In this document: one piece after another, positions 694 through 63,563 of the stretch
How the letters are laid out: every line of letters starts with the position of its first letter
Position numbering within the stretch: the first letter of the stretch is position 1
Source: an uncultured Candidatus Saccharibacteria bacterium
Lineage (GTDB): Bacteria; Patescibacteriota; Minisyncoccia; Phycocordibacterales; DATGWK01
Length of the DNA stretch: 64,000 nucleotides
Assembly (NCBI GenBank): GCA_964356815.1
Contig: CAYHIR010000002.1
Coordinates: forward strand, 7,418-71,417
Direction: 5' to 3'
Position numbers and translations under genes: made by a program
Notes under the pieces: generated by a model
Database searches by the model: none
Seen by the model: the letters and a program-made list of their open reading frames with translations, nothing else
What the model was told of the DNA's origin: nothing

Positions 694-2643
694 ATGAAAG
701 TCATTGAAGTCATCCCAATAGCTCGCGGTATTGGTAAGGAAACGCTCACCTATTTCACGAGCAGTCAGCCAAAAATCGGCTCGATAATTCCGGCCGTTCT
801 TCGTGGCAAAAAAATTCGCGGCGTAGTGATTTCGTCTGAAGACGCGAGCGCACGCCGAGCTGAGCTCCGCGACTCGCCTTTTGTGATTAAAAAAGCGGGC
901 GATGAAAAAAGTTTAAAACAATTTTTCCTGCCAGAATTTTTAACCGCGGCGAGCGATACAGCCAAATATTTTGCCGGGACAGTGGGCGGCGCGCTCCATC
1001 TGCTCGTGCCGAAAATAATTTTAGACAATATTGATGAACTCGACGGCGCAGACACGGGCGCGGATTCCGGCGGTGATGACGCGGTGGAAGACAGCGGTGC
1101 AAAAAACAGTGCGAAAACCGCTGGCAAAACCACCTCGCACCACGTCCTCATTCTCCAAGCCGAAGATAGCGAAAGAATTGCCAATTACAAAAGCATTGTG
1201 CGCGAAGAATTTGCTCGCGGAAGATCGGTTTTTATTTGCGCACCAACGACCGCCGACGCCATTCGCATTAAAAGTCATCTCGATCGCGGCATTGAAGACT
1301 ACTCACACATTTTTCATGGTCAACTTCGCAAAAAAAATCTCATCGAGGCGTGGAATAAAGCGCTAGATCACAAACATCCGATGCTCATTGTGGCCACGGG
1401 CTCGTTTCTCTGTTTGCCGAGACGCGACATAGGCACGATTTTGGTGGAGCGAGAATGCTCGCGTGGTTATAAAATGCAGACGCGGCCATTTATCGATGTG
1501 CGAATGTTTGTGGAAATTTTGGCCAAGAAAATAAATGCCCGGCTCATTTATGGCGACACACTGCTTCGCACGGAAACTATTTGGCGTTACAAACAAGACG
1601 AAATTCACGAGCTATCGCCACTTGCATTTCGTTCCACCACTTCTGCCCGTCAACAAATTATTGACGCACGCACCAGCGCCACCGATCGCACGATTCGTGT
1701 AGACACGCTTTCGCACACACTGGCCGACATTATTGAAAAAAGTAATGAACGGAACGAGCACACATTTCTTTTTGCCGCTCGGCGTGGCCTCTCCCCGCTC
1801 ACACTCTGCCAAGATTGTGGCTCGATTGTGAGTTGCAAAAATTGTCGCGCGCCGATTGTCCTTCATTCAAAGTCTACCGAGCGATTTTTTCTCTGTCATC
1901 ATTGTGGCGAACGCAGAAGCGCGGAAGAAAAATGTAAAAATTGCACGAGTTGGCGGCTCCGATCTTTCGGCGTAGGCATTGAGCTTGTGGCTGACGAAAT
2001 AAAGTCGCGTTTCCCCGATGTAAATTTATTCCGCATAGATTCAGATACCGTAAAAACAAATGCGCGTGCAACGGCGATTGCCAAAAAATTTAAAGAAAAA
2101 CCGGGTGCAGTGCTCCTCGGCACCGAAATGGCCATTGGCTATCTCGATATGCCGATAGAAAATACGGCTGTCGTGTCGCTAGACTCAATGTTTAGCATTC
2201 CCGATTTTCGAATCAATGAAAAAATTCTTTCCACACTTTTGAAACTGCGCGGCCTCGCCACAAAGCAATTTCTCATCCAAACCCGCGATCCAAAAAATCG
2301 TCTTTTCGAATATGCGCTCGCGGGCAATCTTCTCGATTTTTACAAAGAAGAACTCACCGAGCGCGAACGCTTCGATTATCCGCCGCTCGTTGTGCTAATA
2401 AAAATTAGTTTCACTGGCACGCCAAAACAAGTGAAAGACGAAATGGAAAAACTCAAAAATATTTTCGCCAATTACGCCGCCGAAAATTATCAAGCTTCCA
2501 CGCCCGCCCGCCGCGGCGCCTACACCGAGCATCTGCTCATCAAAATCGGTCGCACACGCTGGATCGACGAAGAACTTTTGCACCTGCTCAAATCTCTGCC
2601 GCCGCAATTTACGATTGAAGTGGAACCGGAGAGTGTTATGTAG
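694..2643 (+). CDS. priA: primosomal protein N' (PriA)-like helicase with degenerate ATPase motifs
   Basis: N-terminal 3'-DNA-binding-like domain, then the PriA Cys-rich zinc region CQDCGSIVSCKNCRAPIVLHSKS...CHHCG...CKNC. No canonical GxxxxGKT Walker A; only a degenerate SAKTAGKTT. Confidence 0.65.
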   Translation: MKVIEVIPIARGIGKETLTYFTSSQPKIGSIIPAVLRGKKIRGVVISSEDASARRAELRDSPFVIKKAGDEKSLKQFFLPEFLTAASDTAKYFAGTVGGALHLLVPKIILDNIDELDGADTGADSGGDDAVEDSGAKNSAKTAGKTTSHHVLILQAEDSERIANYKSIVREEFARGRSVFICAPTTADAIRIKSHLDRGIEDYSHIFHGQLRKKNLIEAWNKALDHKHPMLIVATGSFLCLPRRDIGTILVERECSRGYKMQTRPFIDVRMFVEILAKKINARLIYGDTLLRTETIWRYKQDEIHELSPLAFRSTTSARQQIIDARTSATDRTIRVDTLSHTLADIIEKSNERNEHTFLFAARRGLSPLTLCQDCGSIVSCKNCRAPIVLHSKSTERFFLCHHCGERRSAEEKCKNCTSWRLRSFGVGIELVADEIKSRFPDVNLFRIDSDTVKTNARATAIAKKFKEKPGAVLLGTEMAIGYLDMPIENTAVVSLDSMFSIPDFRINEKILSTLLKLRGLATKQFLIQTRDPKNRLFEYALAGNLLDFYKEELTERERFDYPPLVVLIKISFTGTPKQVKDEMEKLKNIFANYAAENYQASTPARRGAYTEHLLIKIGRTRWIDEELLHLLKSLPPQFTIEVEPESVM

Positions 2644-7067: not shown

Positions 7068-7376
7068 TCCGCGATAGCTCAGCTGGTAGAGCGAGCGACT
7101 GTGAACAAAATCGCAGCTTCCCGAAGTAATTCGGGTTGAAAAACGAGGTTAATTGCTGGAAGCCCACCCGATCGAAAGATCGCGGGTAATCAGCAGCCGA
7201 GCCTGTCATTCGACAGGAAGGTTCAGAGACTATCCCTAACGGGAGTACTTGGCCGAAAGGTCTAGGAAACACCTCGCGCCCCATTTATTGGGGCGATGAT
7301 ATAGTCCATCCCTTTAAGAAATTTTAGGATCGATGTAATCGCTTGGTCGCAGGTTCGAGTCCTGCTCGCGGAGCCA
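7068..7376 (+). tRNA. tRNA-Asn (anticodon GUU) interrupted in the anticodon loop by a group I intron
   Basis: 5' half 7068-7102: acceptor TCCGCGA, D-arm GCTC/AGCTGGTA/GAGC, anticodon stem AGCGA, loop CTGT. 3' half 7336-7376: TAA, TCGCT, variable TGGTC, T-arm GCAGG/TTCGAGT/CCTGC, acceptor TCGCGGA, discriminator G, CCA. The spliced anticodon loop is CUGUUAA. Confidence 0.75.
7103..7335 (+). ncRNA. group I self-splicing intron (233 nt, no ORF)
   Basis: R element GTTCAGAGACTA (7221-7232) and S element GATATAGTCC (7298-7307) form P7. The 5' exon ends in U and can pair with intron GCAG (7113-7116) as P1. The terminal nucleotide is G (omega-G) at 7335. Confidence 0.7.
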
Positions 7377-8945: not shown

Positions 8946-10006
8946 TTTCCCTCAAGTGGCCCCGACGAACCACCTCGCCCAGCAATAACCGAGACGCTAA
9001 TACCACTTTCATTTGCCACATACACTTTTTTACCAAAACCAAGCATTGCGAAAGGTTTTGATCCAACACCGAGAGTAGACACAGTATTGCTGTTCAAAGT
9101 ATCGATAACCGACACAGAATCGTCGGCAAGATTGGCGACATAAACCTTAGAGCCAAGTACGGCTATTTCTTTCGGCAGATTACCCACGGGGATAGTAGAG
9201 ACGGCGTTATCACTGGCAGTATCAATAATAGAAATCGTGTCATCGATACTGTTGGTAACATAAACTTTTTTACCCAAAGTAGCTAAAGCAGGACCGTAAA
9301 AAGAGCTCTGACCGACTGTTATAGAAGAAACGGAATAGTTGTTTGCGGGATCGATAATTGAAACAGTGTTACCAACATTGCCCACAAAGACCTTCCCGCC
9401 GAGTGTGGCTAGAGAATGAGGCTTAGTGCCAAGATCTATGCTCGTAACAGCATTGCCGTTGGCGATGTCGATAATAGACACACCACTACTTTCAGCCACA
9501 TAAACCTTTTTACCCACCACGAGTAAATCTTTCGGACCGAAGCCAACTTGAATGTTGGAGGCAGAATTACCATTGGCAGTGTCGATGATAGAAACCACAC
9601 CCTTGCTCTCACTTGCGACATAGACCTTAGAATCGGTGGCTGCTACGGCGTAAGGAAACTGACCAACTGTTACGGAAGTTACAGAGTTGGCATTTGCAGT
9701 ATCAATAACAGACACGGAATTGTCGCCACTGTTTACCACATACACCTTCGATCCGACACTGACCATAGACTGAGGCGCGGCTCCAACATTTACAGTCGAA
9801 ACTGAATTTGCATTGGCAGTGTCGATGACGGATACGGTCGCATCGTCAAAATTGGCTACAAAAACTTTAGAGCCTACGGTTGCAAAAGCTCGGGGTCCTC
9901 CACCCACAGGAATTGTGACCAAAACAGTATCTGCTGAAACTAGATTGGAAAATATACCGAAAAGTATGAGAACGAAGACAGCAATGAAGGGTAGAGATTT
10001 TTTCAT
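8942..10006 (-). CDS. secreted YVTN-family beta-propeller repeat protein
   Basis: Signal peptide followed by about 8 repeats of about 40 aa: VGxxPxxxxxxGSKVYVxNxxDxSVSVIDTANxNxV. Confidence 0.7.
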   Translation of the reverse strand: MKKSLPFIAVFVLILFGIFSNLVSADTVLVTIPVGGGPRAFATVGSKVFVANFDDATVSVIDTANANSVSTVNVGAAPQSMVSVGSKVYVVNSGDNSVSVIDTANANSVTSVTVGQFPYAVAATDSKVYVASESKGVVSIIDTANGNSASNIQVGFGPKDLLVVGKKVYVAESSGVSIIDIANGNAVTSIDLGTKPHSLATLGGKVFVGNVGNTVSIIDPANNYSVSSITVGQSSFYGPALATLGKKVYVTNSIDDTISIIDTASDNAVSTIPVGNLPKEIAVLGSKVYVANLADDSVSVIDTLNSNTVSTLGVGSKPFAMLGFGKKVYVANESGISVSVIAGRGGSSGPLEGN

Positions 10007-10146
10007 AATGAACAGACTGAGTGCAGTTTTTTAAATTATTAATAAAATAAACGACGACAAACGACCATGAACAGAAGTAACAGAATAATTCTAGCAAAAC
10101 CACTTAGAAGAGTATACTCGGCTCATTTCGTGTTATATTTCTAGGA

Positions 10147-11016
10147 ATGGAACCAGCCCAAAAAAATCGCGCCTTGGGTGTCGTCCTGATTGCTATTATT
10201 CTAATCGGTGGCTTTTTCTTCTACCGCACATACACCAAGCTAAGCGACGCTCGAAGCGAGCTCTCCTCTTCAACAGCCGCCGCAGAGGAGTTCCAATTTC
10301 AACTTTCTGAAGCGGGAGAAGAAAACGCTGAGCTTAAAGAATCACTAGAAAATGAGCGCGCTCGAGCCGAAGAGCTTTCGGAGAAATTGTCTGATGCAAC
10401 GGGCGCAATAGATGAATTTGAAAAATTGAGTCGCATCGATCCAGAGCTTCTCCAAAAATATTCCAAGGTCTTCTTTCTAAATGAAAATTACAAACCGGCA
10501 GATCTCCAAGACATAACCACAAAATATTTATACACACCCGCCAAGCCAGCTACGATTCACGATGAGGTTTGGTCGAATCTTCGCCGCCTTCTTGCCCGTG
10601 CCGAAAGAGACAAGGCGCCCTTAAAGGTCGTCTCGGGCTTTCGTTCCTTCGAAGATCAGACCACGCTAAAAGGTAAATACACAACCGTCTACGGTTCTGG
10701 CGCTAATCAGTTTTCCGCCGATCAAGGCTACTCCGAACATCAGCTTGGCACAGCCGTCGACTTTGCTACCGTCGACACTCCACCCGCTGAATTAATTTTT
10801 GAAAATACTGCCGGTTACAAATGGCTCCAGAAAAATGCTCACAATTACGGCTTCGTCCTTTCCTATCCAAAAGGCAATTCGTTCTACCAATTTGAGCCGT
10901 GGCACTGGCGCTTCGTCGGTGTTGACTTAGCTACGGATCTTTACAACGACGAGAAAAATTTCTACGAAATGGATCAGCGTGAGATTGATAAATATTTAAT
11001 TAAGATTTTCGATTAA
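10147..11016 (+). CDS. peptidase M15 (VanY/D-Ala-D-Ala carboxypeptidase family), membrane anchored
   Basis: N-terminal TM plus coiled coil. Motifs SGFRSFEDQ, SEHQLGTAVDF and EPWHWRFVG match zinc D,D-carboxypeptidases. Confidence 0.75.
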   Translation: MEPAQKNRALGVVLIAIILIGGFFFYRTYTKLSDARSELSSSTAAAEEFQFQLSEAGEENAELKESLENERARAEELSEKLSDATGAIDEFEKLSRIDPELLQKYSKVFFLNENYKPADLQDITTKYLYTPAKPATIHDEVWSNLRRLLARAERDKAPLKVVSGFRSFEDQTTLKGKYTTVYGSGANQFSADQGYSEHQLGTAVDFATVDTPPAELIFENTAGYKWLQKNAHNYGFVLSYPKGNSFYQFEPWHWRFVGVDLATDLYNDEKNFYEMDQREIDKYLIKIFD

Positions 11017-11129
11017 AGAATCGGCAGAGCGCGAGCGATATTGCGAGCGCGGAAAACTGGCTAATTTGAGCCGTTTTTTCATGCTTTTTATTGTATACCA
11101 AATTTACCTGTTTTCTTTGTGTTTTTTGC

Positions 11130-61246: not shown

Positions 61247-61275
61247 TTGACAGAATATACATAGTATGATATGAT
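61247..61275 (+). promoter_or_regulatory. strong sigma70-like promoter TTGACA-N17-TATGAT
   Basis: Perfect -35 box, 17-nt spacer, 5/6 -10 match. About 80 nt upstream of the SD-preceded small ORF. Confidence 0.6.
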
Positions 61276-61356: not shown

Positions 61357-61467
61357 ATGTATTACGACTCATTCACCGGCCTCTACTTCAACCCCACCAC
61401 CGGAATGGTCTTCACCGCCGCCGAGATCATCGGCTTCGCCTCGGGCGACGGCGAGTGGGGCAGGTAA
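61357..61467 (+). CDS. 36-aa small ORF (possible leader peptide or small protein)
   Basis: SD GAAGGAG 7 nt before ATG. Sequence MYYDSFTGLYFNPTTGMVFTAAEIIGFASGDGEWGR. About 60% GC. Terminator 35 nt downstream; pheS starts at 61583. Confidence 0.35.
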   Translation: MYYDSFTGLYFNPTTGMVFTAAEIIGFASGDGEWGR

Positions 61468-61502
61468 GCCCAACCGCCCGACAACATGGGGAAGAAGAGA
61501 TT

Positions 61503-61538
61503 AGACCACGCTACTTTGTACGGCGTGGTCTTCTTTTT
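61503..61538 (+). terminator. rho-independent terminator just upstream of pheS
   Basis: AGACCACGC-tactttgtacg-GCGTGGTCT followed by TCTTTTTG. Confidence 0.6.
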
Positions 61539-61582
61539 GCCAATTTTTGTAAAATCGCGGTGGCTGGTGTATATTTTAAGCC

Positions 61583-62734
61583 ATGAAAAGAACGCAATAT
61601 AATGTCTCACTCGACGAGCAGACGCAGATTCTAAAGACACTAGACGACCGAGCAGACACTCAAGCTGAGCGACTCAAGCGTTACATTGCTCTCCCCGACC
61701 TCACTCGCACTGAGGGTGGGCCACTGAAAGTCATTACCGACACAATCATCAGTCTGCCGAGCTTAAAAGATTTCGATATTATTGAGACACCAGAAGTTAT
61801 TTCCCCATCTATCGTCTTCGACCTTTTTAATTTTCCCAAAGATCATCCCGCTCGCACCCAGAGCGACACATATTATGTAGACGACACGCACATTCTCCGC
61901 CCGCACACGAGTCTCATGTGGAAATATTACCTTGAGATTCCAGAGGTTTTGGAAAAACTCGAAAAAGACGGCCAAGTGGGCGCGCTATGCTACGGCACTG
62001 TATATCGTCGTGACGAAATAGATTGGCAACACACAAACGTCCTTCATCACATCGACGGTCTTTATCTTTGCAAAAAATCGGTGAAAGAACTCGGTCAGCC
62101 AGACCTCGAAAACATTCTATGGGAAGTGGCACGACAAATTTTCGGCAAAGATGTAAAAGCAGAGTTTCGTGTAGATCATTTCCCTTACACCGATCCGAGT
62201 CTCGAAATGAATATTGCTTGGGGTGAAAAATGGATTGAAATTTTGGGCGCAGGTATCGTCCATCCGGCGGTTATAAAAAATCTCGGCCTCGACCCAGAAA
62301 TTTACAATGGCTGGGCATTCGGTTTTGGTGTCGATCGTCTTGCAATGATCAAAATGCAAATTCCCGACATTCGCCTCCTCCGATCTGAAGATGAGCGCGT
62401 AAAAAAACAACTCGCCGACATAAATCACAAATATCAAGCGGTGAGCAAATATCCGTCAGTGGTGCGCGATATTTCTTTCGTTGTAGACAAAGCTTCATTC
62501 AACGAATTCCGTTATTACGAAATCGTTCGCGAAATTGGCGACGATCTTATTGAAGAAGTTAAACTGCTCGACAAATACGAAAGCGAGAGCAAATTCGGCG
62601 CCGGAAAAATTAGTTACACATTCCGAATCACCTATCGCGACCTAGACCGCACACTCACAAGCGAAGAAGTTGATGTTGTACACAAAAATATCGAGAACAA
62701 AACCACTGAGGAATTTGGCGCGATGATCAGATAA
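61583..62734 (+). CDS. pheS: phenylalanyl-tRNA synthetase catalytic (alpha) chain fused to a C-terminal FDX-ACB anticodon-binding domain
   Basis: Class II core (FPYTDPSLEMNIAWGEKWIEILGAG, GWAFGFGVDRLAM). C-terminal 95 aa match the ferredoxin-fold anticodon-binding domain normally found at the PheT C-terminus. No pheT adjacent. Confidence 0.8.
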   Translation: MKRTQYNVSLDEQTQILKTLDDRADTQAERLKRYIALPDLTRTEGGPLKVITDTIISLPSLKDFDIIETPEVISPSIVFDLFNFPKDHPARTQSDTYYVDDTHILRPHTSLMWKYYLEIPEVLEKLEKDGQVGALCYGTVYRRDEIDWQHTNVLHHIDGLYLCKKSVKELGQPDLENILWEVARQIFGKDVKAEFRVDHFPYTDPSLEMNIAWGEKWIEILGAGIVHPAVIKNLGLDPEIYNGWAFGFGVDRLAMIKMQIPDIRLLRSEDERVKKQLADINHKYQAVSKYPSVVRDISFVVDKASFNEFRYYEIVREIGDDLIEEVKLLDKYESESKFGAGKISYTFRITYRDLDRTLTSEEVDVVHKNIENKTTEEFGAMIR

Positions 62735-62774
62735 AATTGCCACGGTCGATGACGCGACGTGCTTAGTAAGCTAC

Positions 62775-63563
62775 CTAGAGCTCCGTCGTGGCAATATAGG
62801 CTCCGTCTTTTACATATACGAAACCACCACTAATTCTAAAGTCTGGGTTTTGGCCGCGAAAAATGGGGTAAATATTTTGGTAGGCAGAAGTGTCGAGCTC
62901 GAGAGCGTAAATGCCGTTGTCGAAAGAAATCAACACTGCGTCTTCCCTGCCGGGGAAAAAGTCGAGGGTGTCGATTTTAGAATTGGCTGTCCAGATATTT
63001 ATGTTTTTTTGGCAAACTGCTCGCTCTTCGCAGAAATAGTATGGTGCAGTGCTCGTAGCCTCGAGCCACTCAGCACGAATGCTCGGACCAGATGCAGAGA
63101 CTCGTATATCACCGCCCACTTTTAAGGCAGGTGTAGATGTGGCAAAAAGTTTGGCCGCGATCAAATAATCGGAAGAATTTTTTAAAACTTCTTCAAACTG
63201 CATAATTTTTGGCACAAGGAGTGGAAACCGAGCGGCCACTTCTCCCTTTTTTACATCCACAAACTTTGCCCATGGCCAAAAATTTTCGTGGGAAACTAAG
63301 AGCAAATAATTTTTAGCCTCCAAATTTTTTACCAAAACTTCTTTTTCAAAACGGCTCGTAGTGGCACGCAAATCGTCACCGATAAAAATCTGCGCTCCAA
63401 TCTCCGGTACATACACATACACACCACCACGGCGCGTGAGATTGAACGCATCGTCGAGCGAGTAGCCAGTGGCGTAAAGCAAAAGTGTGGGAATGGCAAC
63501 GATAAAAATAAAAGCAAAAAACAGAAAATAGGCTATTCGAACTTTTTTTGGCATCGCTCCCAT
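62775..63563 (-). CDS. hypothetical membrane-anchored protein
   Basis: N-terminal TM followed by a 230-aa soluble region. No family recognised. Confidence 0.4.
   Translation of the reverse strand: MGAMPKKVRIAYFLFFAFIFIVAIPTLLLYATGYSLDDAFNLTRRGGVYVYVPEIGAQIFIGDDLRATTSRFEKEVLVKNLEAKNYLLLVSHENFWPWAKFVDVKKGEVAARFPLLVPKIMQFEEVLKNSSDYLIAAKLFATSTPALKVGGDIRVSASGPSIRAEWLEATSTAPYYFCEERAVCQKNINIWTANSKIDTLDFFPGREDAVLISFDNGIYALELDTSAYQNIYPIFRGQNPDFRISGGFVYVKDGAYIATTEL

What the first reader, a model, noticed from the sequence alone, without database searches (positions are those of the whole stretch)
61583..62734. Single-chain (mitochondrial-type) PheRS: PheS core plus FDX-ACB domain, no pheT downstream
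The ORF starts directly with the class II catalytic core, with no long N-terminal coiled coil. It ends with about 95 aa that align with the ferredoxin-fold anticodon-binding domain of the PheT C-terminus (DISFVVD...LLDKYES...KISYTFRITYRDLDRTLTSEEV...FGAMIR). The next gene is an unrelated minus-strand ORF, so the usual pheS-pheT operon is absent here. This architecture mirrors monomeric mitochondrial PheRS and is uncommon in bacteria.
Basis: partly seen in the sequence, partly recalled or inferred. Interest (0 to 1): 0.55.

Follow-up and report, generated by a model that had tools for sequence, protein, structure and literature searches.

The report
Single-chain bacterial phenylalanyl-tRNA synthetase
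A tiny-genome (CPR/Patescibacteria) bacterium encodes a one-piece enzyme for loading phenylalanine onto tRNA, built like the mitochondrial enzyme and unlike the usual two-subunit bacterial one, so this "mitochondrial" design also exists as a widespread bacterial lineage.

Summary
ORF 61583-62734 (+, 383 aa) is a PheS class II core fused to a C-terminal FDX-ACB (PheT-B8-type) anticodon-binding domain. It has no long coiled coil, and no pheT or second pheS lies in the 64-kb window. The contig is from a Patescibacteria MAG (Hainich groundwater). Sequence, domain-by-domain comparison and a confident AlphaFold model all place it closest to human mitochondrial PheRS, yet it falls below the curated cut-offs of pheS_mito, pheS and SrmL. 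At least 431 species-level genomes of the Parcubacteria-type radiation carry the family. In an NJ tree it is a bacterial sister branch of the mitochondrial/viral single-chain group. PheRS catalytic and Phe-pocket residues are conserved, with motif-2 deviations. In relatives of 60-79% identity the gene is preceded by a Phe-codon-rich leader peptide with a terminator/antiterminator switch, which ties it to Phe-tRNA supply. The window's own copy has lost the Phe-rich leader and keeps only the terminator. Best reading: a functional, editing-less housekeeping PheRS. Not shown: that canonical pheST is absent from the rest of this genome, the oligomeric state, and enzymatic activity.

The parts
61583..62734 (+). 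Single-chain PheRS gene (383 aa), a PheS-type catalytic core fused to an FDX-ACB anticodon-binding domain
   Evidence: ORF; Pfam; NCBIfam; PDB; AF2 model; fold search
61721..62410 (+). Class II catalytic core (aa 47-276): HTS loop, motif 2 (R142, LHHIDG), FPYT Phe pocket, GAG, motif 3 (WAFGFG..R252)
   Evidence: Pfam tRNA-synt_2d E 6e-54; residue conservation in 117 family members
62444..62731 (+). FDX-ACB (PheT-B8-type) anticodon-binding domain (aa 288-383)
   Evidence: Pfam E 7.9e-22. Alone it matches the human mtPheRS ABD at E 2e-17 and bacterial PheT B8 at 4e-8 or weaker. D296, S298, F299, S344 and R383 are family-invariant or nearly so
61247..61275 (+). Distal promoter-like site TTGACA-17-TATGAT (11 of 12, TG-extended), upstream of the mini-ORF
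   Evidence: a consensus match only
61357..61467 (+). GC-rich (61%) 36-codon mini-ORF with an AAGGAG Shine-Dalgarno. It is a diverged remnant or replacement of the Phe-rich leader peptide found in relatives (4 Phe of 36)
   Evidence: the partial peptide similarity SFT..F.PT.TG..F to the L011/L012 leaders was read by eye
61492..61538 (+). Strong intrinsic-terminator-like hairpin (inner stem AGACCACGCU/GGCGUGGUCU, outer A-run/U-run) about 45 nt before the PheRS start. It is homologous in position and sequence to the seg2/seg3 terminator of the attenuators in relatives
   Evidence: RNAfold -26.6 kcal/mol, z -2.8; comparison
61547..61575 (+). Proximal promoter-like site TTGTAA-17-TATATT, 8 nt before the ATG (leaderless-type layout, as in the far clade)
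   Evidence: a consensus match, and function is inferred
62739..62758 (-). Terminator-like hairpin between the convergent PheRS gene and the downstream minus-strand ORF
   Evidence: a consensus match only

Best explanation
The ORF encodes a compact single-chain phenylalanyl-tRNA synthetase of a Patescibacteria (CPR) bacterium. The class II core would activate phenylalanine with ATP. The fused C-terminal FDX-ACB domain, the same module that ends bacterial PheT and mitochondrial PheRS, would read the GAA anticodon of tRNA-Phe. There is no B3/B4 editing domain, so mischarged Tyr- or m-Tyr-tRNA-Phe is not proofread in cis. It is most likely the housekeeping PheRS of this reduced genome, and it belongs to a bacterial lineage that is sister to the mitochondrial/viral single-chain enzymes. 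In relatives of 60-79% identity, expression is governed by a classical leader-peptide attenuator. When a ribosome stalls on a run of Phe codons, an antiterminator forms. When it reaches the leader stop codon, it masks that segment and the terminator forms. In this window the Phe-rich leader has been lost or replaced, the terminator remains, and the gene is probably transcribed from a proximal promoter. Shown: architecture, family membership, structural similarity, residue conservation, distribution, and the leader anatomy in relatives. Inferred: enzymatic activity, Phe specificity, oligomeric state, sole-PheRS status, and regulation.
For: Domains. The closest solved relative by sequence and by fold over the full length is human mtPheRS, using a model with pLDDT 91.8 and pTM 0.88. 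Among 117 family members the following are invariant or nearly so: the HTS loop, motif-2 R142, P201-Y202-T203 of the Phe pocket (F or Y at 200), GAG, W244-A245-F246-G247 and R252. A245 equals E. coli A294 / ttA314, T203 equals the Thr of hmPheRS, and Tyr at ttF260 is the state found in eukaryotic cytosolic PheRS (PMC3275996). True SrmL proteins have a remodelled pocket and score 402-446 bits, against 219-239 for this clade. The gene lies among housekeeping genes (gyrB, thrS, dnaE, tsf, rpsB) with no conserved partner. The family occurs in at least 431 species genomes, including three closed 0.89-1.19 Mb chromosomes. No second PheS-like gene or PheT was found in 1.22 Mb of flanks. In a public matrix of 84 CPR genomes, 8 have FDX-ACB without the PheT-specific B5 domain, and none of those 8 has the canonical PheS N-domain, against 25 of 42 genomes that have both FDX-ACB and B5 (Fisher p 0.004). 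A Phe-rich leader ORF followed by a terminator occurs in 15 of 25 near-clade loci, 0 of 36 far-clade loci and 0 of 61 reverse-complement controls. The three RNA segments covary. Folding predicts the antiterminator in 11 of 12 nascent transcripts, the terminator in 12 of 12 when the leader stop is occupied, and the antiterminator in 9 of 12 when stalled on Phe codons.
Against: The protein is below the curated cut-off of every NCBIfam PheRS model (pheS_mito 229 against 258; pheS 174 against 237), and NCBI annotates it as hypothetical. Motif 2 departs from the PheRS hallmark F-H-Q-x-E-G: L154 replaces the Phe in this clade, position 156 is His in 74 and Gln in 43 of 117, and D158 replaces Glu invariantly. 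Asp at that position is, however, common in other single-chain forms. Absence of pheS/pheT from the rest of this genome was not shown, since only 64 kb plus 10 kb were seen. Most CPR genomes in the public matrix do have the PheT B5 domain (57 of 84), and some CPR are known to have PheRS-beta (PMC5370408). The window's own upstream mini-ORF is not Phe-rich and no clean antiterminator is predicted, so the regulatory argument comes from relatives. There are no biochemical data.
Confidence: 0.7

Rival explanations
1. It is an accessory PheRS paralogue. The genome also carries a canonical (alpha-beta)2 PheST elsewhere, and this compact enzyme is a back-up or condition-specific copy, for example induced on Phe-tRNA starvation.
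For: Only part of the genome was seen. 57 of 84 public CPR genomes have the PheT B5 domain, and CPR PheRS-beta proteins are documented. A non-CPR Oligoflexia MAG with a normal-looking gene neighbourhood also carries a single-chain homologue. An attenuator could equally control a starvation back-up copy.
Against: The 8 CPR genomes with FDX-ACB but no B5 all lack the canonical PheS N-domain. The family is well conserved across many candidate phyla, at 51-91% identity, and is embedded among housekeeping genes. No pheT or second pheS was found in 1.22 Mb around 80 copies. Genomes of 0.9-1.2 Mb rarely keep redundant synthetases; this last point is general knowledge and was not tested here.
Confidence: 0.18
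2. It is a PheS-derived ligase with a non-canonical role or substrate, like the uncharacterised SrmL 'mystery ligase' family, and not a translational PheRS.
For: SrmL is the best-scoring NCBIfam model by E-value (4.4e-69). Motif 2 deviates at positions 154, 156 and 158, which align to the conserved PheRS motif F-H-Q-x-E-G.
Against: The score of 233 is below the SrmL cut-off of 300, while true SrmL proteins score 402-446. SrmL forms its own clade (100/100) apart from the CPR clade (99/100). SrmL has HPYT, LECG and GLA[SM]G where this family keeps F/YPYT, LGAG and WAFG. The anticodon-binding domain is retained and conserved. Phe-codon leader attenuators in relatives tie expression to Phe-tRNA.
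Confidence: 0.08
3. It is foreign DNA, meaning a recent transfer from a eukaryote or virus, or an assembly or binning artefact, and not a resident CPR gene.
For: Compact single-chain forms occur on a 494-kb phage- or virus-like contig, and giant-virus PheRS groups with organellar enzymes (PMC11304981).
Against: The identical gene is found on 8 contigs from several samples with the same CPR housekeeping neighbours. Its GC content (0.45) matches the surroundings. The CPR sequences form one well-supported clade of hundreds of species, separate from the mitochondrial/viral clade.
Confidence: 0.02

Closest known systems
Mitochondrial PheRS (human FARS2, yeast MSF1; NCBIfam TIGR00469 pheS_mito; PDB 3cmq, 3tup)
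   Same: It has the same one-chain architecture of PheS catalytic module plus B8/FDX-ACB domain, with no B1-B7 and no editing domain. It is the best sequence and fold match over the full length. It has Thr at the ttV261 position, as in hmPheRS.
   Different: It is bacterial and lacks the insertion that splits the alignment to the mitochondrial enzymes into two stretches. It scores below the curated cut-off (229 against 258). It sits in a separate clade that is sister to the mitochondrial/viral group, not nested within it. Motif 2 reads LH(H/Q)IDG instead of FHQxEG/A. Relatives have a bacterial-type leader-peptide attenuator upstream.
Canonical bacterial PheRS, (alpha-beta)2 from the pheS-pheT operon (TIGR00468, TIGR00472)
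   Same: The catalytic core is homologous (32% identity to E. coli PheS over 279 aa). The C-domain is homologous to the last domain of PheT.
   Different: It has no N-terminal coiled coil and no adjacent pheT. It has none of B1-B7, including the B3/B4 editing site and the B6/B7 catalytic-like module that forms the heterotetramer interface (PMC3275996). It scores below the pheS cut-off (174 against 237).
SrmL, 'PheS-related mystery ligase' (NCBIfam NF051887), function unknown
   Same: SrmL has a PheS-like core followed by a C-terminal region that aligns to the FDX-ACB part of this protein. It is the top NCBIfam hit by E-value and belongs to the same single-chain superclade.
   Different: The score is 233 against a cut-off of 300, while true members score 402-446. 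SrmL has a remodelled amino-acid pocket and forms a separate clade.
Single-chain PheRS of giant viruses and huge phages
   Same: The architecture is the same. A 367-aa example lies on a 494-kb contig with terminase, T4-type RNA ligase and another aaRS. Viral PheRS has been reported to group with organellar enzymes (PMC11304981).
   Different: The viral forms are shorter (about 345-370 aa) and cluster with the mitochondrial branch, not the CPR branch.
E. coli pheM-pheST leader-peptide attenuator and Rfam Phe_leader (RF01859)
   Same: In relatives of the query there is a short ORF dense in Phe codons, followed by mutually exclusive antiterminator and terminator hairpins just upstream of the PheRS gene.
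   Different: There is no sequence or Rfam similarity; the only RF01859 hit is 15.6 bits on the wrong strand. The leader peptide has a different consensus (F-x-F-[ST]-F-[TP]-F-P...G-L-W/F-stop). The organisms are CPR bacteria. The element is absent or degenerate in the window itself.

Membership tests
Mitochondrial-type single-chain PheRS (TIGR00469 pheS_mito) | PheS catalytic module and FDX-ACB/B8 anticodon-binding domain in one polypeptide, with no other PheT domains | tested here: met
   Pfam finds tRNA-synt_2d at 47-276 plus FDX-ACB at 288-383 and nothing else
Mitochondrial-type single-chain PheRS (TIGR00469 pheS_mito) | Score at or above the curated equivalog cut-off (258.35 bits) | tested here: not met
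   229.2 bits. The nearest 50%-identity representative, P0121, passes with 264.3, and L098's copy scores 254.8. The family straddles the cut-off.
Mitochondrial-type single-chain PheRS (TIGR00469 pheS_mito) | Full-length fold and domain arrangement like human mtPheRS | tested here: met
   Foldseek best hit is 3cmq: E 8.9e-30, 393 columns, TMq 0.67. Canonical PheS chains cover only the core.
Mitochondrial-type single-chain PheRS (TIGR00469 pheS_mito) | Groups phylogenetically inside the mitochondrial clade | tested here: not met
   In the NJ tree the mitochondrial plus short forms (97/100) and the CPR plus other bacterial single-chain forms (99/100) are separate clades
Mitochondrial-type single-chain PheRS (TIGR00469 pheS_mito) | Active as a monomer | not testable with these tools
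   Needs SEC-MALS, native MS or a complex prediction
Canonical bacterial PheS (TIGR00468) | Score at or above the cut-off of 237.45, N-terminal coiled-coil domain (PF02912), and a partner pheT | tested here: not met
   174.1 bits; no PF02912; no pheT in the window or flanks
SrmL PheS-related mystery ligase (NF051887) | Score at or above the cut-off of 300 bits | tested here: not met
   233.2 bits; true members score 402-446
SrmL PheS-related mystery ligase (NF051887) | SrmL-type active-site residues (HPYT / LECG / GLA[SM]G) | tested here: not met
   The query family has F/YPYT, LGAG and WAFG, as in PheRS
Functional PheRS (any form) | Class II motif 2 and motif 3 arginines, the HTS loop, the aromatic Phe-pocket pair, and the specificity Ala (Ec A294) | tested here: met
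   R142 (116 of 117), R252, H108, S110, F/Y200, Y202, T203 and A245 are invariant or nearly so; mapping via PMC3275996
Functional PheRS (any form) | Hallmark motif-2 end F-H-Q-x-E-G | tested here: inconclusive
   The query has L-H-H-I-D-G. Position 156 alternates between H (74) and Q (43) in the clade. D158 is shared with many other single-chain forms. L154 is clade-specific.
Functional PheRS (any form) | Charges tRNA-Phe with phenylalanine | not testable with these tools
   Requires a biochemical assay
Leader-peptide transcription attenuator (pheM-pheST type) | Short upstream ORF enriched in codons of the cognate amino acid | tested here: not met
   The window's mini-ORF has 4 Phe in 36 codons and at most 2 in any window of 10. 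The feature is met in 15 of 25 near-clade relatives with 5-8 Phe in 16-28 codons.
Leader-peptide transcription attenuator (pheM-pheST type) | Intrinsic terminator between the leader ORF and the structural gene | tested here: met
   Window hairpin 61492-61538 with a U-run, -26.6 kcal/mol; present in all 15 relatives analysed
Leader-peptide transcription attenuator (pheM-pheST type) | Alternative antiterminator whose 5' arm is masked by a ribosome at the leader stop codon | tested here: inconclusive
   No clean antiterminator is predicted in the window. It is clear in relatives: covarying seg1'/seg2/seg3, and folding behaviour of 11/12, 12/12 and 9/12.

The most novel reading that the evidence does not exclude
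The fusion of the PheS catalytic module with the PheT B8 domain arose once, in bacteria. On this reading the mitochondrial (and giant-virus/huge-phage) monomeric PheRS descends from, or was exchanged with, a bacterial single-chain lineage such as the one now dominant in Parcubacteria-type CPR bacteria. It would not have been created in early eukaryotes by 'massive domain loss'. As a corollary, a large bacterial radiation translates with an editing-less minimal PheRS as its only PheRS, in some lineages under a Phe-leader attenuator and in one lineage genetically linked to a free-standing PheT-B2-like (YtpR-family) tRNA-binding protein.
Probability: 0.3. Interest if true: 0.75.

Novelty: new variant of a known kind. 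Interest (0 to 1): 0.6.

Why it matters
The reference view is that PheRS comes in three forms and that the monomeric CAM+B8 'chimera' is unique to mitochondria (PMC3275996). Here the same design is the conserved, and probably the only, PheRS of hundreds of bacterial species. If confirmed, four things follow:
1. The origin of mitochondrial PheRS becomes a testable phylogenetic question with bacterial sister groups.
2. There would be a natural case of bacteria translating without PheRS proofreading against Tyr and m-Tyr.
3. It would provide very small bacterial PheRS scaffolds (about 380 aa) for structural work and genetic-code engineering.
4. Automated annotation and marker-gene completeness estimates would need correcting for CPR genomes. 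NCBI calls the protein 'hypothetical', JGI calls it 'alpha chain', and pheT and B5 are used as universal single-copy markers.

The Phe-leader attenuator in relatives matched no Rfam family.

Tried and rejected
1. **Direct genome-wide test for pheT was not possible.** Loci are limited to 10-kb flanks, and the single genome-collection scan went to the family itself.
2. **KO and gene tables gave nothing.** K01889/K01890/phenylalanyl were absent from the supplements of four CPR papers. Only the anonymised anvi'o marker matrix was usable.
3. **Seeds for a CPR PheT failed.** Canonical PheS representatives closest to the query turned out to be a spore-forming Firmicute (L094) and a MAG of unclear origin without an adjacent pheT. 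The plan to match contig lengths between a PheT hit list and the single-chain contigs was therefore dropped.
4. **No classical T-box or Phe_leader.** The Rfam scan of the leader gave no T-box match and only a 15.6-bit Phe_leader hit on the wrong strand.
5. **Automatic covariation counting was not used.** MAFFT (alignment A2) did not keep seg2 and seg3 in register because linker lengths vary. Per-sequence segment matching and folding were used instead.
6. **SrmL context could not be learnt.** Only 1.3-kb contigs were returned, and no paper mentions SrmL.
7. **The 'mini-PheT' is not clearly a PheT relic.** It passes the curated cut-off of the YtpR tRNA-binding family, which is annotated in many genomes. 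I therefore do not use it as evidence that PheT was dismantled, only as a linked tRNA-binding protein in one lineage.
8. **Literature searches found no description.** Ten searches found no account of a bacterial single-chain PheRS. The library lacks most subscription journals, so this is not proof of absence.
Full report
**1. The observation**

The ORF 61583-62734 (+) is real: ATG to TAA, 383 aa. Pfam finds the PheRS-type class II core (tRNA-synt_2d, aa 47-276, E 6e-54) and the ferredoxin-fold anticodon-binding domain (FDX-ACB, aa 288-383, E 7.9e-22). It finds nothing else, and in particular not the PheS N-terminal coiled-coil domain. The first 46 residues are predicted as two short helices. 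The downstream neighbour is a minus-strand 262-aa ORF with no Pfam match. The ten largest ORFs of the window include housekeeping genes (rpoB, rpoC, dnaE, dnaG, thrS, SMC, RNase R, an AddA-like helicase) and two ORFs without any Pfam match; gyrB lies directly upstream of the gene. tblastn with E. coli PheS and PheT finds no other PheS- or PheT-like sequence in the 64 kb, or in the 10 kb beyond the window end.

**2. Source and distribution**

The identical protein is NCBI locus AAB726_00025 of a 'Patescibacteria group bacterium' MAG, annotated 'hypothetical protein'. It lies on eight contigs, including several from Hainich groundwater well H41.

- The best 120 database relatives (61-91% identity) all have both domains. 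They come from Minisyncoccia, Falkowbacteria and Moranbacteria MAGs.
- A scan of one genome per GTDB species, using two family-specific peptide patterns, found 431 genomes. The named ones span the Parcubacteria/Paceibacterota radiation: Nomura-, Yanofsky-, Zambryski-, Specht-, Vogel-, Kerfeld-, Falkow- and Moranbacteria, and Minisyncoccia.
- Three of the hits are closed chromosomes of 0.89-1.19 Mb.
- Some record titles ('uncultured Gammaproteobacteria' or 'Saccharibacteria') look like loose submitter taxonomy.
- Gene neighbourhoods differ between lineages and are housekeeping in character.
- No second PheS-like gene and no PheT occur in 1.22 Mb of flanks around 80 copies.

**3. What the protein resembles**

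- **By sequence:** the best solved relatives are human mitochondrial PheRS entries (E about 2e-56), ahead of bacterial PheS chains (7e-40 and weaker).
- **C-domain alone:** it matches the mitochondrial anticodon-binding domain at 2e-17, and bacterial PheT B8 domains only at 4e-8 to 4e-3. Both halves are therefore 'mitochondrial-type'.
- **By structure:** an AlphaFold model built on 62 family members is confident (pLDDT 91.8, pTM 0.88). Over its full length it superposes best on 3cmq, the closed form of human mtPheRS (393 columns, TMq 0.67, E 9e-30). Canonical PheS chains align to the core only.
- **By curated family models:** the protein is below every cut-off, with SrmL at 233 against 300, pheS_mito at 229 against 258 and pheS at 174 against 237. 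That explains the 'hypothetical' label.

**4. Relation to neighbouring families**

An exhaustive search of 1.84 billion cluster representatives gave 246 proteins at E<=1e-30. They fall into recognisable groups:

- **Genuine mitochondrial enzymes.** P0138, for example, is Msf1 of Schizosaccharomyces osmophilus.
- **Compact forms of about 345-370 aa.** These pass the pheS_mito cut-off. One lies on a 494-kb contig with terminase, homing endonuclease, T4-type RNA ligase and another aaRS, which suggests a huge phage or giant virus.
- **A few other bacterial single-chain proteins.** One is from an Oligoflexia MAG.
- **True SrmL proteins.** These score 402-446 bits.
- **Canonical PheS.**

In an NJ tree of 207 catalytic-core columns with 100 bootstraps:

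- all single-chain forms separate from canonical PheS (100);
- the CPR family is monophyletic (99) and groups with the other bacterial single-chain proteins (99);
- the mitochondrial plus compact forms make a second clade (97);
- SrmL makes a third (100).

The tree is distance-based and should be repeated with better models. As it stands, it argues for a single origin of the fusion and places the query in a bacterial sister lineage of the mitochondrial type, not inside it.

**5. Is it a PheRS?**

In 117 family members the following are invariant or nearly so:

- the HTS loop (H108, S110);
- the motif-2 arginine (R142, 116 of 117);
- the Phe-pocket motif F/Y200-P201-Y202-T203;
- G222-A223-G224;
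- W244-A245-F246-G247 and the motif-3 arginine R252;
- in the C-domain, D296, S298, F299, S344 and the terminal R383.

Three of these map to functional residues named in the Safro-lab review. A245 is E. coli A294 / T. thermophilus A314, which sets the pocket size. T203 corresponds to ttV261, which is Thr in human mtPheRS. Tyr at the ttF260 position is the invariant state in eukaryotic cytosolic PheRS and is called conservative there (PMC3275996).

SrmL proteins, by contrast, have HPYT, LECG and GLA[SM]G at these places.

There is one real deviation. The motif-2 end, F-H-Q-x-E-G in canonical and mitochondrial enzymes, reads L-H-H-I-D-G in the query. Position 156 alternates between His (74) and Gln (43) within the clade. 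Asp158 is invariant but is also common in other single-chain forms. Leu154 is specific to this clade. From my own knowledge, not tested here, these positions contact ATP and the amino-acid backbone. I read the changes as tolerated variation, but they keep the 'different substrate' rival alive.

**6. A regulatory element in relatives that bears on function**

The gene is preceded by a 490-nt spacer. In relatives of 60-79% identity the equivalent spacer encodes a short ORF dense in Phe codons. Examples:

- L011: MIFNYNIFFFFSFTFPTRTGAF
- L020: MIILKVRQFGFFFSFFFPSKVGLF
- L028: MTIQTLRFRFFFIFFFHS
- L006: MINHSFTLNFFSFPFRQRGLW
- L093: ...SSFFFFRSACFKRATLF

The leader peptides are homologous, with a core of F-x-F-[ST]-F-[TP]-F-P.

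Each leader ORF is followed by three RNA segments. Seg1' overlaps the last codons of the leader ORF. It has nearly the same sequence as seg3, and both are complementary to seg2. Seg3 is followed by a T-run 27-73 nt before the PheRS start. The segments covary between species: GGGTCT/AGACCC/GGGTCT, GCGAGTT/AACTCGC/GCGAGTT, GTGGGC/GCCCGC/GCGGGT and CGGGCCTTTT/GAAAGGCCCA/TGGGTCTTTT.

Folding predictions:

| Condition | Predicted structure | Count |
|---|---|---|
| Nascent transcript, before seg3 is made | seg1':seg2 antiterminator | 11 of 12 |
| Ribosome at the leader stop codon | seg2:seg3 terminator | 12 of 12 |
| Ribosome stalled on the Phe codons | antiterminator is the MFE structure | 9 of 12 |

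Under identical automatic criteria, 'Phe-rich ORF followed by terminator' occurs in 15 of 25 near-clade loci, 0 of 36 far-clade loci and 0 of 61 reverse-complement controls.

This is the anatomy of a classical leader-peptide attenuator of the E. coli pheM-pheST kind. It has no sequence or Rfam similarity to that element. It ties expression of the gene to the supply of Phe-tRNA-Phe, which is what one expects for the cell's PheRS.

**7. The window's own leader is different**

- A near-consensus promoter-like site (61247-61275) precedes a GC-rich (61%) 36-codon ORF (61357-61467) with a good Shine-Dalgarno. That ORF has only 4 Phe codons.
- A very stable terminator hairpin follows (61492-61538; -26.6 kcal/mol, z -2.8). 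No clean antiterminator is predicted.
- The mini-ORF peptide retains a faint resemblance to the L011/L012 leaders (SFT..F.PT.TG..F), but it reads on for 17 more codons.
- The closest relative (91% identity, L091) has a different GC-rich 50-codon ORF with one Phe at the same place.
- In this sub-lineage the Phe leader therefore seems recently lost or replaced.
- A proximal promoter-like site (61547-61575) ends 8 nt before the ATG. The far clade shows the same leaderless-type layout, with CTTTACTT..TATATT just before the ATG.

Regulation in this particular genome is thus inferred and uncertain.

**8. Is it the only PheRS?**

This could not be settled. The indirect evidence for and against is as follows.

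For sole-PheRS status:

- The anvi'o CPR training matrix, reproduced as a supplement of PMC8672522, lists Pfam single-copy markers for public CPR genomes.
- In the first 84 genomes, 57 have the PheT-specific B5 domain.
- Eight have FDX-ACB without B5. None of those eight has the canonical PheS N-domain, against 25 of 42 among genomes with both FDX-ACB and B5 (Fisher p 0.004).
- Because B5 and FDX-ACB lie on the same PheT polypeptide, FDX-ACB without B5 is the expected signature of a genome that has only the single-chain enzyme.

Against over-generalising:

- Most CPR genomes do have PheT, and CPR PheRS-beta proteins are documented (PMC5370408).

I therefore treat 'sole housekeeping PheRS' as the most likely reading for this clade, but as an inference.

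**9. A linked tRNA-binding protein in one lineage**

- In L028 (Moranbacteria), a 133-aa ORF that begins like PheT (MNFLYNWLKK...) and continues into the B2 OB-fold lies convergent to the PheRS gene.
- Its homologues form a family of 471 clusters. The 120 listed are 125-191 aa and carry only the tRNA_bind domain; the few named ones come from Moranbacteria, Parcubacteria-group and Patescibacteria-group MAGs, and JGI auto-annotates many as 'PheRS beta chain'.
- On a 278-kb contig the gene order is tyrS, this small gene, then a 380-aa single-chain PheRS (50% identical to the query) 20 nt downstream on the same strand.
- The small protein matches the N-terminal 120 positions of the pheT model (143-163 bits). 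It also passes the curated cut-off of the YtpR tRNA-binding family. It should therefore be called a YtpR-family protein, not a PheT relic.
- It is not encoded in the window or near the other 80 copies.
- It may act as a trans-acting tRNA-binding helper in that lineage. This is speculative.

**10. Verdict**

The protein is a bacterial single-chain PheRS of the mitochondrial design, belonging to a large CPR family that no curated model captures. In the searchable literature I found no description of it: ten searches, with most subscription journals missing from the library.

The field's stated view is that the monomeric CAM+B8 enzyme is unique to mitochondria. A conserved bacterial sister lineage is therefore noteworthy, and it makes the origin of mitochondrial PheRS testable.

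Activity, specificity, oligomeric state and absence of canonical pheST from the whole genome remain to be shown.

Noticed in passing
window 7068-7371 (+): A group I intron (Rfam RF00028, 70.9 bits, E 5.6e-16) interrupts the anticodon loop of a tRNA gene. Read by eye, the exons give stem AGCGA/TCGCT and the spliced loop CUGUUAA, that is tRNA-Asn(GUU). The 5' exon ends in U and the intron ends in G. ARAGORN reported no tRNA anywhere in the window.
   Followed up: partly
window 61357-61467 and L091 26-175: GC-rich (about 60%) mini-ORFs of 36 and 50 codons occupy the same spot upstream of the PheRS gene in two genomes whose PheRS proteins are 91% identical. The flanks are conserved but the peptides are essentially unrelated. 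The surrounding spacer is 36% GC. The origin of this GC-rich insert is unexplained.
   Followed up: partly
L028 2526-2927 (-); L098 10001-10429 (+); L099 153-581 (+): A family of standalone 125-191-aa PheT-B1/B2-like (tRNA_bind) proteins occurs in CPR bacteria (471 clusters). It passes the YtpR cut-off. It lies adjacent to the single-chain PheRS in a Moranbacteria-like lineage, and in L098 and L099 it is co-directional with a 20-nt gap, directly after tyrS.
   Followed up: partly
L009 (494-kb JGI contig), gene at 10001-11104: A 367-aa single-chain PheRS lies on a contig with terminase, NUMOD homing endonuclease, T4-type RNA ligase, PNKP-like protein, ClpP and a class I aaRS (tRNA-synt_1c). The contig looks like a huge phage or giant virus.
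   Followed up: no
protein P0150 (872 aa): This is a fusion protein. An AlaRS catalytic region (alaS model, 375 bits, aa 115-415) is followed by a full mitochondrial-type PheRS (pheS_mito 390 bits, aa 460-871). Its source organism is unknown.
   Followed up: no
L013, L039, L046, L048, L054, L080 (about 100 nt upstream of the PheRS start): In several far-clade genomes a tRNA gene sits directly upstream of the single-chain PheRS gene. Read by eye, the anticodons are CAT in four (L013, L039, L048, L080) and GTC in two (L046, L054).
   Followed up: no
far-clade loci, e.g. L033, L038, L043, L081 (last 45 nt before the ATG): A conserved promoter-like CTTTACTT..(17)..TATATT ends only 6-8 nt before the start codon. 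This suggests leaderless mRNAs for this gene in Paceibacteria-type genomes. The window shows the same layout at 61547-61575.
   Followed up: no
window 694-2643 (+) and 62775-63563 (-): A 649-aa ORF and the 262-aa ORF next to the PheRS gene have no Pfam match at E<=0.001.
   Followed up: no
window 61583 compared with L091 295: The query protein lacks the first 9 codons that its relatives have (383 against 392 aa). This reflects a 27-nt difference immediately after the ATG relative to L091. The relatives begin M-x-x-I-Y-x-x-x-H-L-K-R.
   Followed up: partly
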